Virus record (IMG/VR): IMGVR_UViG_2778261204_000006
Span: 1-38,045 of that record
DNA length: 38,045 nucleotides
Origin: a virus
Taxonomy: Duplodnaviria > Heunggongvirae > Uroviricota > Caudoviricetes
Reading direction: 5' to 3' (one strand)
A program made the position numbers and the translations under genes. Under the pieces are notes generated by a model. That model searched no databases. It saw only the letters and a list, made by a program, of their open reading frames with translations, and was not told where the DNA came from. Position 1 is the first letter of the stretch, and each line of letters opens with the position of its first letter. This document shows, in pieces, positions 6,166 through 10,297 of the stretch.

Positions 6166-7935
6166 TTAGTTGCCGTTAACAATGCTGATAACGCTGCTGC
6201 GGGCCGGCGTGGTCAGCGTGGCCATGACTTCATCCAGTGCGGCTTCCGGTACGCCGTCCGGATACTGTGCCGTTAACTGGCGGTAATGTTCCGGCGTCCA
6301 GGTAAGGCCGTTGGCGCTGAACTTCCCGCGCAGGGCTTTCGCGGCCTCCACATGAGTCATGGGACGCTGTTCAGTGCGCGGTCCGCGTACGTCAGAGGCC
6401 TGACCTCGCTTCGGTATACAGGCCGGAAGTGTGGCGTCATCAATATGTTTATACGGGTCAAGCCGCCCGCCGAACGGCAGCGCCTTCGCCTTGCGTGCGG
6501 CAGCTGCATCTGCGGCGTTGTCTGTACCGGTGACCAGCGCTTCGGTTTCTTTTGCCGCCATCTGCGCCGGGGTTTCCGGCAGGGCTTTGTAACTTTCGCC
6601 AAATACCGCCGCGCCTTCAGCAAAGCCAAACTCGTTCTTTCTGACCTCTTCGACCAGGAAGAACGTCTCGTGGCCGTCCTCACCGGTCAGAACCACCTGT
6701 GCCACATCGCTGCGCCACGGGTTACGGGTAATCATCAGTTTTTCACCGACCAGTACGCCCGGTACCGTTGATACGTCAAATTCAGTGCCCCGGAACGAGA
6801 CACGAAGTTTTGGCGTGACTTTGCGGAGTTCTGGTGCTGCCACAGCCAGTTCACGGCATACCTCAACGGAAGGCGCTTTTTTCAGCTGCTCAGCAGTAAT
6901 CTTCAGCCAGATATCCGTGCGGGTTTTACCGTGGCGGCTGTGAACAGCTGTTGCGTTAAAGTGGCTGCGCCATTTCGCGGCCAGCGCGTTGAGTTCTTCC
7001 AGACTGTGAACCGGCCGGAACTTCAGACCCGGCTCCAGCTTGCGTTCGATAATGTCTCGCGCCTTTTCCACCTGTCCGGTGGCGCGGGCGTTATGCGGCT
7101 TGTGCGCTATCAGGTCGATGCCCAGTGAGCGGCACATGTTTTTCGTCATACCCGCGGTGTTTGCCGAGCCGGGGTCGAGATAGAGTATTTTCGGCACGCC
7201 GTGCAGCACGTCTGCGCCGCCACGCTCCTGCATGGCATTGATAAGCACAGAACACAGGTTCTCACCGGATTCCGCACCCGTCACATACTCAACGTAAATC
7301 CAGCCGCTGGCATGGTCGGTAATCTCGTAACTCCACACGCGGTCACTGGCGATACGGGCAAGGTTAGCGGGCTTGTTCTTGTAGAATTTCGCGCTGTCCA
7401 TCACCTGCAGCCCTTTATGTCCATTGCTCAGGTAGTAAAGCGTGCAGAGTGAGGCGTCAATCTGCCAGACATGATTGGGATGCAGACTGGCCACTTCGGT
7501 ATGTGGTGCAGGGGCATCCAGTTGTTCCGGGTGCAGGCCATAGTTACGCAGGGCGCGACTGATGGCATCTTCGGACAACGGGAAAAACTCACCGGTGGTT
7601 TCATCTGTTCTGCCTGCGGAGATAAAGCCGTTAGCCCGCAGGGTTTCCACTGCATCCGCGATGGAATAGAGACGCTTACCGTTCTTGCGGGTGGCCTCAC
7701 GTAGTGTGGCAGATATCAGCGCGGCTTCGTCGCGGGTCAGGGCGCTGCGCCCGGCATCGGCGCGTTTTTTGCGTTTATCAGTCACAGATACCTCCTTCAG
7801 CCTGCGCAGCAGAGTGGCGCGGGACATGCCAAGTTCAGCACAGGCAGCGTCGTATATTGCACCGCGTTTACCATGCCCCGCGTCACGTGCCGCGCGGGCT
7901 GTTTCAACCAGTTTTTCAGTCAGTGCCGGGGTCAT
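6166..7935 (-). CDS. DDE transposase (Mu A-like)
   Basis: 589 aa; acidic catalytic-motif candidates (VWQIDAS, YLDPGSANT); paired with a downstream ATPase as in Mu A-B. Confidence 0.85.
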   Translation of the reverse strand: MTPALTEKLVETARAARDAGHGKRGAIYDAACAELGMSRATLLRRLKEVSVTDKRKKRADAGRSALTRDEAALISATLREATRKNGKRLYSIADAVETLRANGFISAGRTDETTGEFFPLSEDAISRALRNYGLHPEQLDAPAPHTEVASLHPNHVWQIDASLCTLYYLSNGHKGLQVMDSAKFYKNKPANLARIASDRVWSYEITDHASGWIYVEYVTGAESGENLCSVLINAMQERGGADVLHGVPKILYLDPGSANTAGMTKNMCRSLGIDLIAHKPHNARATGQVEKARDIIERKLEPGLKFRPVHSLEELNALAAKWRSHFNATAVHSRHGKTRTDIWLKITAEQLKKAPSVEVCRELAVAAPELRKVTPKLRVSFRGTEFDVSTVPGVLVGEKLMITRNPWRSDVAQVVLTGEDGHETFFLVEEVRKNEFGFAEGAAVFGESYKALPETPAQMAAKETEALVTGTDNAADAAAARKAKALPFGGRLDPYKHIDDATLPACIPKRGQASDVRGPRTEQRPMTHVEAAKALRGKFSANGLTWTPEHYRQLTAQYPDGVPEAALDEVMATLTTPARSSVISIVNGN

Positions 7936-7950: not shown

Positions 7951-8268
7951 TTATCCGATTCTGGCGGCAATTTTTCTGGCGAGGTCGCACAGTGTTTCGC
8001 CATCGCAGGTTTTCACCACGGTATTTACCGGTTGCGGTGCAACTACCGGGCGCAATGCTGACTGATTCTGCAGACGTCTTATCTGCTGCATCAGCATCAC
8101 CTCCATCGCCAGTACAAACGGGTGCGCCTCCTGTGCGGGTACGCAGATTTCACCGGAAGGGGTCACCACGCGGAAACCCTGCACCATTTCCGGCACCAGA
8201 TTACACAGTGCGTGCCCCAGTGCTTCCGGGCTGTCCATCAGGATATTTTGTGTGTTATTCGTGTTCAT
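7951..8268 (-). CDS. hypothetical early protein
   Basis: 105 aa; TAATG overlap with the upstream gene. Confidence 0.45.
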   Translation of the reverse strand: MNTNNTQNILMDSPEALGHALCNLVPEMVQGFRVVTPSGEICVPAQEAHPFVLAMEVMLMQQIRRLQNQSALRPVVAPQPVNTVVKTCDGETLCDLARKIAARIG

Positions 8269-9185
8269 TAACGTATGCCCTCCGGTCGGTTGATTTCAGG
8301 CTCCGGTTCGGTCAGCCAGGCGGGGACATCGTTACCCGATGGTGCGGCATCAAGGTCAAACGTCTCACGCAATGCATGAACACTGCGTTCAATCTGGCAG
8401 ACCAGACCGGCCATGAAATCTCTGGGGGTATCAATCATGTGTTCAGCACAATATGCGCACAGCGTCTCAAACGCGCCGGACAGCCGGACGGCGATGGCAG
8501 ATTCCGCCTCAACCGCTAATGCCGTCACTTCCGCCCGCAATTTTTTCAGTTCTTCGTCTGGCGGCGGAGGTTGCAGGCGCGATTTCTTCTCCAGTTTTGT
8601 GGCCAGTTCGTTGATTTTTTCGTCCTTTCCGGCAAGCACCTGTTGCTGAGCTGCGTTGGTTTCGCGCGCTTCACGCAGGGCCTGGCGAAGTTCGCGGCTG
8701 GTCATGCGATCAATATCGTCGAGAGTCATTCCAGCAACCGTGCCGCCGTCAGCCAGTTCGGCAAGATCTTCGTCATCTTCCGTCATTAACTCAAAAAGTT
8801 TGGTTTTCCCCAAATGTGCCAGCGCTGGCACATTTGGTTTCAGCGTCGGGGATAAGTATTTTGTCGATGCCTGCATCATTCGCACAGATGTCCGGTACGC
8901 CAGCCCCAACTCACCTTCAAGAATCTTTATAAACTCCCCATGCGGCTCATTTTCCTTAAGAAGGATCAATCGTTTACCGGCTTCCAGCATTGCTTCCGCG
9001 CTCTGCGCCATATAAAAGCGTGCCTCATGAACAACACGATCGCGCTCATAGGGCAGGCCATCACCGAACAGTTGCATGATCTCCGTGCTGTGTTGTGTCA
9101 TGGCGTTCAGACTGACATTGAGATCATCCGACAGGGGGACCTCGGCGTTCAGTTCAGTGTTAACCAGTGATTTAGTGCGTCCCAT
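8268..9185 (-). CDS. hypothetical early protein (acidic and coiled-coil regions)
   Basis: 305 aa; strong AAGGAG RBS 6 nt before ATG 9185. Confidence 0.5.
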   Translation of the reverse strand: MGRTKSLVNTELNAEVPLSDDLNVSLNAMTQHSTEIMQLFGDGLPYERDRVVHEARFYMAQSAEAMLEAGKRLILLKENEPHGEFIKILEGELGLAYRTSVRMMQASTKYLSPTLKPNVPALAHLGKTKLFELMTEDDEDLAELADGGTVAGMTLDDIDRMTSRELRQALREARETNAAQQQVLAGKDEKINELATKLEKKSRLQPPPPDEELKKLRAEVTALAVEAESAIAVRLSGAFETLCAYCAEHMIDTPRDFMAGLVCQIERSVHALRETFDLDAAPSGNDVPAWLTEPEPEINRPEGIR

Positions 9186-9195
9186 TGATTACTCC

Positions 9196-9504
9196 TTACA
9201 AACGACTACCTGAAATAACTCGCTGGTTGATTTCGTTAATACGATCCTGTGCACGTGCCATCTCGTTACTGTGGGCCATAGCGATCTGCAGTAACTGGAT
9301 GCCCGGCGCGAAACGCCCGTTTTCCAGTTTCAGGGCCAACCCTTCTTCAATGAGGGTGTTGAGTGCCCGGTTGATGTTTGCCGGTGACTCGTGCAGTGCT
9401 GCCGCCAGTTCACCGTTGGAAATACCGTTCAGGGCATGACCACGCAGCGCTTTCAGTACCCGGAGGATGCGACTGCCGGAGCTTGAAACATTCGTCTTAC
9501 TCAT
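9196..9504 (-). CDS. winged-helix DNA-binding regulator (IclR-N-terminal-like fold)
   Basis: ORF 9196..9510; translation SRILRVLKALRGHALNGISNGELAAALHESPANINRALNTLIEEGLAL resembles wHTH domains. Confidence 0.45.
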   Translation of the reverse strand: MSKTNVSSSGSRILRVLKALRGHALNGISNGELAAALHESPANINRALNTLIEEGLALKLENGRFAPGIQLLQIAMAHSNEMARAQDRINEINQRVISGSRL

Positions 9505-9556
9505 CTGCATACCTATTTTTCAATATGTGATAATCTTTTTCGTATGCTGTATCTTT

Positions 9557-9745
9557 TTAAGCGGCGTCAGTGATGGTTTTTAATCCCAGCTTTACAGCGA
9601 TTTCATGGGCTTTGCCATAGTTCGCTTTTACCTGGCCATTCAGTACGCGGTAAACCTCCGCTCTGGTGTAGTTGTTCTGTTTTGCCCACTGGGTAAAAGT
9701 GATCCCATTGCGACGGAAATGAGCTTTGACCTGGTCTGCAGTCAT
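9557..9745 (-). CDS. small DNA-binding protein (Ner/Cro-like early regulator)
   Basis: 62 aa; first gene of the leftward early operon; strong AAGGAG RBS; divergent from the repressor-like gene. Confidence 0.55.
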   Translation of the reverse strand: MTADQVKAHFRRNGITFTQWAKQNNYTRAEVYRVLNGQVKANYGKAHEIAVKLGLKTITDAA

Positions 9746-9797
9746 TGTTGTCTCCTTGTTTGGTGCAATGATGTTTGCGTTATGTGTGATAGATTAT

Positions 9798-9815
9798 TGT
9801 CTAAAAATTTAGACA
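9798..9815. promoter_or_regulatory. palindromic operator candidate TGTCTAAA-AA-TTTAGACA in the divergent regulatory region
   Basis: 8-bp perfect inverted arms with 2-bp spacer, 12 nt upstream of the repressor start. Confidence 0.4.
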
Positions 9816-9826
9816 GAGCAAGTTTT

Positions 9827-10180
9827 ATGTCCATTAATTTAGAAAAAATACATGCGCGTCTCATTTCAGAATTAAAACGTGTTGGTCCTTTGGCGGTATC
9901 TAAGTCCACTGGTATCTCGCGGGCGACGATTTATAACTGGATGGAAAAAGGAAATATCCCGCTAGATAAACTGGTAGTTTTAGGAGCAGCAGGAGTAGAT
10001 GTTGCCTTCATTCTTACGGGTATGAGCACAGATGGTGAGGTGGAAATTCAGAACCGGATATCCCCCGAAAAACAAAAATTAATAGATACTTTTGACGACA
10101 TGACACCAGAGCAACAACGCTCATTTCTTGAGATTGGGCGATTCTATACTCAGCCAAAACCAGGAAAAATCGCAGGCTGA
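9827..10180 (+). CDS. HTH (XRE/Cro-C1 type) repressor-like protein
   Basis: 117 aa from ATG 9827; HTH segment KSTGISRATIYNWMEKGNIP; divergent from the early operon as c is in Mu. Confidence 0.6.
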   Translation: MSINLEKIHARLISELKRVGPLAVSKSTGISRATIYNWMEKGNIPLDKLVVLGAAGVDVAFILTGMSTDGEVEIQNRISPEKQKLIDTFDDMTPEQQRSFLEIGRFYTQPKPGKIAG

Positions 10181-10266
10181 TTCTGACCTGGACACAAAGG
10201 ACAGGTGGTTGATCTGGACGCTTTCAGAAAGCGCCGTCAGTAGCATGGCAGGAATGGGCTGATTTA

Positions 10267-10297
10267 CCGGAAAGCATTGTGCTTTCCGGTTTTGTTT
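10267..10297 (+). terminator. rho-independent terminator downstream of the repressor-like gene
   Basis: CCGGAAAGC / GCTTTCCGG 9-bp stem, 5-nt loop, followed by TTTTGTTT. Confidence 0.5.

What the first reader, a model, noticed from the sequence alone, without database searches (positions are those of the whole stretch)
9746..9826. Divergent regulatory region with palindromic operator candidate
The 81-bp region between the Ner-like and repressor-like genes contains TGTCTAAA-AA-TTTAGACA (9798..9815) 12 nt upstream of the repressor start, positioned to autoregulate or act as the lysis-lysogeny switch.
Basis: seen in the sequence. Interest (0 to 1): 0.35.

Follow-up and report, generated by a model that had tools for sequence, protein, structure and literature searches.

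The report
Repressor operator inside phage early promoter
The palindrome is real and is very probably the main binding site of the prophage's own repressor, placed inside the promoter that starts the lytic genes: an ordinary phage on/off switch, resolved here in some detail.

Summary
The 18-bp palindrome TGTCTAAA-AA-TTTAGACA is at 9798-9815, as reported. It is unique in the window and unlikely by chance. The window is a BcepMu/B3-type transposable prophage of E. coli.

Comparison with 5 E. coli/phage loci, 67 loci from other species and 5 further contigs gives four results:
- **Position.** The palindrome exactly fills the 17-bp spacer between the -35 (TTGCTC) and -10 (AATAAT) of the leftward early promoter.
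- **Pairing with the repressor.** Its sequence changes with the N-terminal DNA-binding domain of the divergent 117-aa repressor. It does not change with the "Ner-like" protein, which stays conserved.
- **Mosaic boundary.** The boundary between immunity types starts at the first base of the palindrome.
- **Second operator.** A degenerate copy (O2, 9828-9845, 14/18 identical) lies 30 bp away over the repressor's start codon. It is specific to its own operator type across about 20 types.

A separate conserved box (9760-9772) sits about 20 nt downstream of the -10 and may be the site for the Ner-like protein.

This is a new member of a known kind of switch, of modest interest. No binding experiment exists; every functional step is inferred from comparative data.

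The parts
9798..9815 (.). O1, the primary operator: 18-bp dyad TGTCTAAA-AA-TTTAGACA
   Evidence: Sequence; unique in the window. Six contexts that share the same N-terminal DNA-binding domain all keep TGTCYAA-N4-TTAGACA at this place. Other immunity types carry a different 18-bp dyad at the identical position.
9828..9845 (.). O2, the auxiliary degenerate operator TGTCCATTAATTTAGAAA. It is 14/18 identical to O1 and 30 bp away centre to centre, and it overlaps codons 1-7 of the repressor.
   Evidence: In 19 of 24 representative loci the best secondary match to O1 lies 29-34 bp away on this side. Cognate O1 matches 11.6/18 against 8.6 for non-cognate, permutation p <= 5e-5, with no signal on the other side. 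In L196 the match is 16/18. In the window, 54 of 20,000 shuffles of the 60-bp flank reach 14/18.
9816..9821 (-). -35 hexamer of the early promoter Pe (TTGCTC on the - strand)
   Evidence: Relatives carry TTGACA, TTTACA, TTGATA or TTGACC at the homologous position, always 17 bp from the -10. In the window itself it matches only 3 of 6 bases, and the consensus scan did not report it.
9793..9798 (-). -10 hexamer of Pe (AATAAT on the - strand). The inferred start of transcription is near 9786.
   Evidence: Conserved as AATAAT, CATAAT or CATCAT in 61 of 67 relatives with a promoter-like score. It lies in the block conserved across immunity types, which ends exactly at O1. In the B3-like phage Fc02 the promoter upstream of the homologous ner-like gene fires when the repressor is inactivated (PMC9936078).
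9787..9795 (+). Candidate proximal repressor promoter (pC2-like): extended -10 TGATAGATT, overlapping the Pe -10 on the other strand. The inferred start is near 9802, inside O1.
   Evidence: TGnTAGATT or TGTGATTAT is present in all enterobacterial relatives inspected. Overlapping pC2/pE promoters are described for B3 and Fc02. No recognisable -35 was found, so this is inference only.
9760..9772 (-). Conserved box ATCATTGCACCAA (family consensus ATC[T/A]TTGCATCA[C/A]), about +15 to +27 of the early transcript. Candidate site for the gp16/Ner-like protein.
   Evidence: 46 of 61 relatives match at least 9 of 13 bases, typically 20 (range 16-29) nt after the -10. The box stays near the promoter even where the Shine-Dalgarno sequence is far away. 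It is unique in the window. No conserved RNA structure was predicted. It is absent in L196, where a true Ner replaces gp16.
9751..9757 (-). Shine-Dalgarno sequence AAGGAGA of the gp16-family gene
   Evidence: Read directly from the sequence; conserved in relatives.
9557..9745 (-).
   Evidence: TIGR04111 at 95.5 bits against a cut-off of 34; phrog_925; 71% identical to phage B3 ORF17. Pfam HTH_35 only at E = 0.18. hhalign against Mu Ner gives probability 10%.
9827..10180 (+). 117-aa immunity repressor: N-terminal 5-helix HTH (residues 1-64), a linker, and a C-terminal helical hairpin (80-108)
   Evidence: Pfam Phage_CI_repr 21.4 bits (cut-off 22) and AlpA 21.2 bits (cut-off 21). AlphaFold2 model with mean pLDDT 81. 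The best PDB fold matches are the DNA-binding domains of 434 repressor, P22 c2, DdrO and SinR. The domain structure is modular.
10266..10290 (+). Terminator-like hairpin followed by a T-run, downstream of the repressor gene
   Evidence: conserved in L001 and L002.

Best explanation
The region is the immunity switch of a BcepMu/B3-type transposable prophage.

**Proposed mechanism (all steps inferred).**
- The 117-aa repressor binds as a dimer to the 18-bp dyad O1 (9798-9815). Its half-sites are one helical turn apart.
- O1 is the 17-bp spacer plus the first -10 base of the leftward early promoter Pe (TTGCTC-17-AATAAT). Pe drives the gp16 gene, two further genes, and the transposase. Occupancy of O1 therefore excludes RNA polymerase and keeps the lytic/transposition operon silent.
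- A second dimer binds the weaker O2 (9828-9845), about three helical turns away and over the repressor's own start codon. It probably binds cooperatively through the C-terminal helical domain.
- Any transcript that reaches the repressor gene must cross both sites. That holds for the overlapping proximal promoter (extended -10 at 9787-9795) and for a distal one. The repressor therefore also limits its own synthesis.
- After derepression, the conserved gp16 protein may bind the conserved box at about +15 to +27 (9760-9772) and damp both directions, as Ner does in Mu. This is the weakest step.

**Shown here:** the sequence anatomy, its conservation, and its co-variation with the repressor domain.
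**Inferred:** binding, cooperativity, transcription start sites and autoregulation.
For: **Position in the promoter.**
- In 35 of 67 distinct relatives, the best inverted repeat in the 200 nt upstream of gp16 is centred within 2.5 bp of the spacer centre of the best sigma-70-like promoter.
- Relatives have strong -35 hexamers (TTGACA) at the same 17-bp spacing.

**Specificity.**
- There are at least 12 unrelated dyad types.
- Identity of the repressor's N-terminal 80 aa correlates with half-site similarity (Mantel r = 0.60, p = 2e-4). Operator similarity is 0.37 for repressor pairs below 50% identity and 0.76-0.88 above it.
- Three E. coli immunity types have near-identical gp16 and flanks but different dyads.
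- Sequence divergence between the three types starts at the first base of O1 and ends at about repressor codon 75.
- The same DNA-binding domain, joined to five other C-termini and in one case next to a true Ner, keeps the O1 and O2 sequences.

**O2.**

**Fold.** The predicted 5-helix HTH resembles the 434 and P22 c2 DNA-binding domains.

**Experiment in a relative.** Fc02 is B3-like, and the window's gp16 protein is 71% identical to B3 ORF17. Inactivating its temperature-sensitive repressor fires pE upstream of the ner-like gene. The overlapping pC2 becomes active only after induction. In lysogens the repressor is transcribed from a distal promoter (PMC9936078). B3 itself shows the same anatomy.
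Against: - There are no binding or transcription-start data for this phage.
- The window's -35 matches only 3 of 6 bases. The consensus scan instead reported TGGACA-16-TAAATT (9833-9806, - strand), which would place O1 over the -10 rather than in the spacer.
- About half of the 67 relatives show no clean centred dyad. Some have long S24-type repressors with direct repeats instead.
- No convincing -35 exists for a repressor promoter, so the autoregulation geometry is uncertain.
- O2 lies in coding sequence, so within one immunity type its conservation is confounded with protein conservation. The cross-type test addresses this.
- The link between gp16 and the box rests on co-occurrence only.
Confidence: 0.8

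Rival explanations
1. The palindrome is the operator of the 62-aa Ner-like (gp16) protein, which would repress from it as Cro or Ner does.
For: The site lies in the shared control region next to the gp16 gene, and small HTH proteins often bind dyads.
Against: gp16 is 98% identical between the window and L002, and 73% identical to L003, yet the three dyads are unrelated. L196 keeps the window-type dyad although its neighbouring gene is a true Ner (PF13693) rather than gp16. gp16 identity correlates with operator similarity more weakly than the repressor domain does (r = 0.28 against 0.60). The element that tracks gp16 is the box at 9760-9772.
Confidence: 0.04
2. The palindrome acts mainly as an autoregulatory site for the repressor's own proximal promoter, and repression of the early promoter happens elsewhere.
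For: The site lies 11 nt before the repressor ATG and covers the inferred start of the extended -10 promoter at 9787-9795. In Fc02, pC2 is silent in lysogens and active after induction.
Against: No other site co-varies with the repressor except O2, which lies further from Pe. The fixed placement of the dyad between the -35 and -10 of the gp16-directed promoter is the most conserved geometric feature across genera. The two roles are not exclusive, and the best explanation includes both.
Confidence: 0.1
3. The palindrome works as an RNA hairpin, either a terminator/attenuator or a translational element in the repressor leader.
For: It folds as a 7-bp stem at -6.4 kcal/mol, z = -2.0 on the + strand and -3.8 on the - strand.
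Against: The stem is weak and AT-rich, and no T-run follows it directly. On the - strand it lies upstream of the inferred transcription start. A hairpin does not explain the co-variation with a protein domain, or a second, non-palindromic degenerate copy 30 bp away.
Confidence: 0.02
4. The palindrome is a chance feature of an AT-rich promoter spacer with no specific binder.
For: The region is AT-rich, and short palindromes are common in such sequence.
Against: Only 63 of 20,000 shuffles give such a repeat, and 0.06 matches are expected in the window. Dyads of different sequence recur at the same promoter position in at least 12 types.
Confidence: 0.02

Closest known systems
Lysis/lysogeny region of Pseudomonas phages B3 and Fc02 (Beetrevirus): RepC repressor, ner-like gene, overlapping pE/pC2 promoters, distal pC1
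   Same: - A gp16-family first early gene; the window protein is 71% identical to B3 ORF17.
- A divergent HTH repressor with a short control region.
- The same -35, dyad, -10 and conserved-box anatomy in B3.
- RNA-seq in Fc02 shows pE firing when the repressor is inactivated (PMC9936078).
   Different: - The operator sequence and the subtype of repressor DNA-binding domain differ.
- The Fc02 paper defines promoters but no operators: 'operator' occurs once and 'binding site' not at all.
- Fc02's distal pC1 lies antisense to gene 10. The window's only candidate (TGTGATAAT, 9526-9534) sits between gp16 and the next gene.
Phage Mu c repressor, Ner, and the Pe/Pc switch
   Same: - A transposable phage with divergent repressor and early promoters.
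- A small HTH protein as the first early gene, followed by the transposase.
- A likely Ner-style site just downstream of the early transcription start.

The Mu side of this comparison rests on established knowledge of Mu.
   Different: - By established knowledge, the Mu repressor binds many non-dyad sites in O1-O3 with help from IHF, and its DNA-binding domain is related to that of MuA. Here there are two dyads and a predicted Cro/C1-type 5-helix HTH.
- gp16 does not reach Ner-family thresholds.
P22 c2, 434 and lambda-type repressor/operator systems
   Same: - A predicted 5-helix HTH domain.
- An 18-bp dyad with an AT-rich centre, similar in layout to P22 operators.
- An operator overlapping the core promoter.
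- A strong site plus a weak site on roughly the same helical face.
- Immunity modules in which operator and DNA-binding domain are exchanged together.
   Different: - Two sites 30-34 bp apart rather than three adjacent ones.
- The second site lies inside the repressor's first codons.
- No S24 autocleavage domain; the C-terminus is a roughly 40-aa helical hairpin.
- No sign that the repressor activates its own promoter.
BcepMu gp16 and gp17
   Same: The window's 62-aa protein is a gp16-family member. gp17 is the presumed repressor, divergent from gp16 (KS10 paper PMC2628397). The nearest deposited phage, PhiKM, is classified as Bcepmuvirus.
   Different: No operator analysis of this group was found in the searchable literature. 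The original BcepMu paper could not be read.

Membership tests
B3/BcepMu-type transposable-phage immunity switch (repressor divergent from a gp16-family early gene) | The first early gene belongs to the BcepMu gp16 family | tested here: met
   TIGR04111 at 95.5 bits against a cut-off of 34; 71% identical to B3 ORF17.
B3/BcepMu-type transposable-phage immunity switch (repressor divergent from a gp16-family early gene) | A divergent HTH repressor separated from the early gene by a short control region that holds a sigma-70-type early promoter | tested here: met
   An 81-bp region, with -35/17 bp/-10 conserved in 61 of 67 relatives.
B3/BcepMu-type transposable-phage immunity switch (repressor divergent from a gp16-family early gene) | The site in the promoter co-varies with the repressor's DNA-binding domain (operator/repressor cognacy) | tested here: met
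   Mantel r = 0.60, p = 2e-4; mosaic boundary at the O1 edge; the same domain goes with the same dyad in 6 contexts.
B3/BcepMu-type transposable-phage immunity switch (repressor divergent from a gp16-family early gene) | The repressor physically binds the site, and the early promoter is derepressed when the repressor is inactivated | not testable with these tools
   The only experimental support comes from a relative, Fc02 (RNA-seq, PMC9936078).
Mu Ner family (Pfam PF13693 HTH_35) | A sequence match to the family model above its threshold | tested here: not met
   The window protein scores E = 0.18, 12.3 bits against a cut-off of 25, and gives no hit at E <= 0.01. 13 of 26 family members hit at E <= 1 (best 5e-5), but the window protein itself stays below the cut-off. 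hhalign against Mu Ner gives probability 10%, E = 0.003. Remote homology remains possible.
Mu c-type repressor/operator system | Multiple non-palindromic repressor sites in three operators, and a repressor domain related to the transposase N-terminus | tested here: not met
   Only two dyads are present. The repressor's predicted fold is Cro/C1-type. The description of Mu comes from established knowledge.
Cro/C1-type (434, P22 c2, 186 CI-like) phage repressors | A five-helix HTH DNA-binding domain | tested here: met
   The AlphaFold2 model has helices at 3-19, 21-28, 32-41, 46-54 and 59-64, with pLDDT about 90. Foldseek matches the 434, P22 c2, SinR and DdrO domains at probability 0.9-0.99, target TM-score 0.55-0.68 and rmsd 2.5-3.2 Å, but with E-values of only 0.15 or worse. 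This is evidence at the level of a prediction.
Cro/C1-type (434, P22 c2, 186 CI-like) phage repressors | A Pfam family match above the gathering score (Phage_CI_repr PF07022 or HTH_3) | tested here: inconclusive
   PF07022 scores 21.4 bits against a cut-off of 22. AlpA PF05930 scores 21.2 against 21. Homologues with the same domain carry precomputed PF07022 hits, marked weak.
Lambdoid SOS-inducible repressors | A C-terminal S24 peptidase (RecA-stimulated autocleavage) domain | tested here: not met
   The protein is 117 aa with no S24 hit, and its C-terminus is a helical hairpin. Some distant relatives (L013, L021, L053) do have long S24-like repressors.

The most novel reading that the evidence does not exclude
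Across the B3/BcepMu-like transposable phages of Proteobacteria, immunity is set by a compact cassette that is exchanged as one unit. It consists of a strong dyad in the early-promoter spacer, a weak dyad written into the first codons of the repressor gene, and the repressor's DNA-binding domain. The repressor's N-terminal amino acids and its own DNA specificity would then be physically coupled. The family would also offer about 20 natural, mutually orthogonal repressor/operator pairs, none of which appears to have been described.
Probability: 0.55. Interest if true: 0.45.

Novelty: new member of a known kind. Interest (0 to 1): 0.3.

Why it matters
For this window the result is an annotation. 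It identifies the immunity repressor, its two operators and the early promoter of a Mu-like prophage family present in about 9% of complete E. coli genomes (483 of 5426). The window's own immunity type is rare (3 of 5426).

More broadly, the comparison predicts which prophages are homo-immune or hetero-immune. It also gives a set of cognate HTH/operator pairs useful for studying DNA-recognition rules or as orthogonal genetic parts. It does not challenge any current model of phage regulation.

Tried and rejected
1. **Consensus promoter scan.** It did not report the promoter proposed here, because the window's -35 matches only 3 of 6 bases. It reported TGGACA-16-TAAATT instead. I kept the homology-based assignment because relatives carry TTGACA at the same place.
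2. **Pattern scan of viral contigs for TGTCTAA-N4-TTAGACA.** It returned 120 loci. Only two (L099, L149) encode the repressor. The rest are chance matches to 14 specified bases. L109, with a weak HTH hit 270 bp away, was judged coincidental.
3. **Sequence search of the PDB.** Nothing significant for either protein.
4. **A -35 for a proximal repressor promoter.** None found in enterobacterial or Pseudomonas relatives. Only an extended -10 is arguable.
5. **RNA structure in the early 5'-UTR.** RNAalifold predicted no conserved pairs, so the conserved box is not an RNA structural element.
6. **GCAA-N6-TTGC dyad reading of the box.** It holds in enterics and some Pseudomonas loci, but the left arm is not conserved. 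I dropped it as a defining feature.
7. **Extra copies of O1 or of the box elsewhere in the prophage.** None found.
8. **Literature.** No operator description for BcepMu-like or B3-like phages was found. The 2004 BcepMu paper is not held, and I did not attempt to retrieve the 2004 B3 paper, so prior description there cannot be excluded.

Full report
**Observation.** The + strand reads TGTCTAAAAATTTAGACA at 9798-9815, with 8-bp arms and an AA spacer. It lies in the 81-bp gap (9746-9826) between a 62-aa gene on the - strand (9557-9745) and a 117-aa gene on the + strand (ATG at 9827). It is the only match in the 38 kb window at up to 3 mismatches, where 0.06 are expected. Only 63 of 20,000 shuffles of the 81-bp region give a repeat with arms of at least 8 and spacer of at most 4.

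**Context.** The window is a nearly complete transposable prophage. Leftward from the gap lie four genes:
- the 62-aa HTH protein;
- an IclR-type winged-helix protein (9196-9510);
- a DUF3102 protein (8268-9185);
- a DDE transposase (6166-7935).

The nearest deposited phage is Escherichia phage PhiKM, classified as Bcepmuvirus. Related prophages occur in 483 of 5426 complete E. coli genomes. The 62-aa protein belongs to the BcepMu gp16 family (TIGR04111, 95.5 bits against a cut-off of 34) and is 71% identical to ORF17 of Pseudomonas phage B3. It does not reach the Ner family threshold: Pfam HTH_35 gives E = 0.18, and hhalign against Mu Ner gives probability 10%. I verified the Mu Ner sequence against the Mu records. 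"Ner-like" is therefore a positional analogy, with remote homology possible.

**A natural experiment in E. coli.** Three immunity types share almost identical gp16 genes and flanks but carry different 18-bp dyads at exactly the same place:
- TGTCTAAAAATTTAGACA (window, L001);
- TATCCCAAAAATGGGATA (L002);
- TGCTCATAATTATGAGCA (L003-L005).

Each goes with a different N-terminal half of the repressor and a conserved C-terminal tail. In a three-way alignment the sequences agree through ...TTAGATTATT. They diverge from the first base of the dyad up to about codon 75 of the repressor, then agree again. Operator, -35, and the DNA-binding domain therefore form one exchangeable cassette.

**Promoter geometry.** On the - strand the dyad is flanked by TTGCTC (9821-9816) and AATAAT (9798-9793), 17 bp apart. 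In the other two E. coli types the -35 is TTTACA or TTGATA. I collected 67 loci from other species through the gp16 protein; they span enterics, Pseudomonas, Xanthomonadales, beta-proteobacteria and others. Of these, 61 have a good sigma-70-like promoter pointing at gp16, usually TTGACA-17-(C/A)AT(A/C)AT. In 35, the best inverted repeat of the whole 200-nt upstream region is centred within 2.5 bp of the spacer centre. The consensus scan did not report this promoter in the window, because TTGCTC matches only 3 of 6 bases. It reported TGGACA-16-TAAATT instead. Either way the dyad overlaps core promoter elements.

**Specificity.**
- Among the 35 loci, identity of the repressor's N-terminal 80 residues predicts half-site similarity (Mantel r = 0.60, p = 2e-4). 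Operator similarity is 0.37 for pairs below 50% identity and 0.76-0.88 above it. gp16 identity predicts it less well (r = 0.28).
- A protein search found the window's DNA-binding domain (ELKRVGP...GISRATIYNWMEKGN.PLDKL) fused to at least five other C-termini.
- Their contigs all carry TGTCYAA-N4-TTAGACA 10-12 nt before the start codon. This includes L196, whose divergent neighbour is a true Ner (PF13693), and L194, where a Mor-like gene comes first.

This excludes gp16 as the binder of the dyad and assigns it to the repressor.

**A second operator.** Scanning ±120 bp around each O1 for its own best secondary match gives a hit 29-34 bp away in 19 of 24 representative loci. The hit is always on the repressor side, 67-78% identical, and usually includes the repressor start codon.
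- Cognate O1 sequences match that position at 11.6/18, against 8.6/18 for non-cognate ones (permutation p <= 5e-5). The mirror position on the other side shows nothing.
- In the window, O2 is TGTCCATTAATTTAGAAA (9828-9845), 14/18 identical to O1. Only 54 of 20,000 shuffles of the 60-bp flank reach this.
- In L196, O2 matches O1 at 16/18, and the N-terminal peptide M-S-N-I-L-E is in effect encoded by the operator.

The 30-34 bp spacing is about three helical turns. That fits cooperative binding of two dimers.

**The repressor.** An AlphaFold2 model (mean pLDDT 81) shows five helices in residues 3-64, a disordered linker, and a helical hairpin at 80-108. The best PDB fold matches are the DNA-binding domains of 434 repressor, P22 c2, SinR and DdrO (probability 0.9-0.99, target TM-score 0.55-0.68, but E-values of 0.15 or worse). 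Pfam gives borderline Phage_CI_repr and AlpA hits. There is no S24 domain, so RecA-type autocleavage is not expected. How induction occurs is unknown.

**The repressor's own promoter.** The start codon is 11 nt from O1, so any promoter must lie on the gp16 side and read through O1 and O2. Enterobacterial relatives conserve an extended -10 (TGnTAGATT or TGTGATTAT; window 9787-9795). It overlaps the Pe -10 on the other strand. No -35 is recognisable.

This matches the published picture for B3 and Fc02. There pC2 and pE overlap, and pC2 is active only after the repressor is inactivated. In lysogens the repressor is transcribed from a distal promoter antisense to the early genes. pE fires on thermal inactivation of a temperature-sensitive repressor (PMC9936078). 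B3 itself has the same layout of -35, dyad, -10 and box. A candidate distal promoter in the window is the extended -10 TGTGATAAT at 9526-9534. It is conserved in Escherichia, Intestinirhabdus, Photorhabdus and Xenorhabdus loci. It is untested.

**A conserved box.**
- The sequence ATC(T/A)TTGCATCA(C/A) follows the Pe -10 in 46 of 61 loci, typically 20 nt downstream (range 16-29). It stays near the promoter even where the ribosome-binding site is far away.
- In the window it is ATCATTGCACCAA (9772-9760 on the - strand), and this is its only copy.
- No conserved RNA structure is predicted.
- It is absent in L196, where gp16 is replaced by a true Ner.

The near-invariant gp16 protein is the obvious candidate binder, which would give a Ner-like function. 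This rests on co-occurrence only; I put it at about 0.4.

**Rivals.**
- An RNA hairpin is weak (-6.4 kcal/mol), lacks a T-run, and cannot explain the co-variation with a protein domain.
- Chance is excluded by the statistics above.
- Binding by gp16 is excluded by the natural swaps.
- A purely autoregulatory role is not exclusive with repression of Pe, and I treat it as a secondary effect.

**Novelty.** This is a classical repressor/operator arrangement in a phage group whose promoters have been described, but whose operators, as far as the searchable literature goes, have not. The 2004 BcepMu paper could not be read and I did not try to retrieve the 2004 B3 paper. I rate it a new member of a known kind, with interest 0.3. 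The family-wide O1/O2 cassette, with O2 written into the repressor's first codons, is the most interesting generalisation.

Noticed in passing
window 8810-8837 (inside the DUF3102 gene, 8268-9185, - strand): A 28-bp perfect palindrome, CCAAATGTGCCAGC|GCTGGCACATTTGG, lies in coding sequence. At the homologous position, eight relatives (L002, L003, L006, L007, L019, L022, L023, L065) carry different near-perfect palindromes of the form CAAA-N9|N9-TTTG. Eight of 13 pair positions vary while staying Watson-Crick complementary. It may be a binding site for a dimeric protein (possibly DUF3102 itself, in the manner of parS), a cruciform, or an RNA hairpin in the early transcript. It remains unexplained.
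   Followed up: partly
window 9526-9534 (+ strand), in the gap between the gp16-family gene and the IclR-type gene: An extended -10-like motif, TGTGATAAT, points towards the repressor gene and runs antisense to gp16. It is conserved in the other E. coli immunity types and in Intestinirhabdus, Photorhabdus and Xenorhabdus loci. It could be the counterpart of the distal pC1 promoter that transcribes the repressor in Fc02 lysogens.
   Followed up: partly
window 9780-10050: The window's immunity cassette (O1, O2 and the N-terminal DNA-binding domain) is found in only 3 of 5426 complete E. coli genomes, whereas the prophage family is in 483. RefSeq names this repressor 'AlpA family phage regulatory protein'. 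The predicted fold is instead a 5-helix Cro/C1-type HTH, so that name is probably misleading.
   Followed up: yes
window 9605-10180 (+ strand ORF of 191 aa): The mechanical ORF list extends the repressor frame 74 codons upstream, through the control region and antisense into gp16. Homologues and the RefSeq annotation start at the ATG at 9827, so the extension is almost certainly not translated.
   Followed up: yes
L013, L021, L053 (relatives from Sideroxydans, Nitrosomonadales and Fluviicoccus): These loci pair the same gp16-family early gene with long (226-244 aa) S24/LexA-like repressors. Near the promoter they have direct-repeat motifs (for example GATTCAT-TTGAAGT twice) instead of a single spacer dyad. 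The early module therefore combines with different classes of repressor.
   Followed up: no
window 10266-10290: A strong hairpin (11-bp stem) with a T-run lies between the convergent repressor and Dam methylase genes. It is probably a terminator for the repressor transcript, and is conserved in L001 and L002.
   Followed up: no
L109 960-1010 (IMG/VR contig IMGVR_UViG_3300005963_000011): An unrelated small element carries TGTCTAAAATTTTAGACA and, 13 bp further on, a second TTAGACA half-site. Both lie at the 5' end of an ORF whose HTH (GVSRATFYNWL) resembles the window repressor's recognition region. This may be convergent use of the same HTH/half-site pair, or coincidence.
   Followed up: partly
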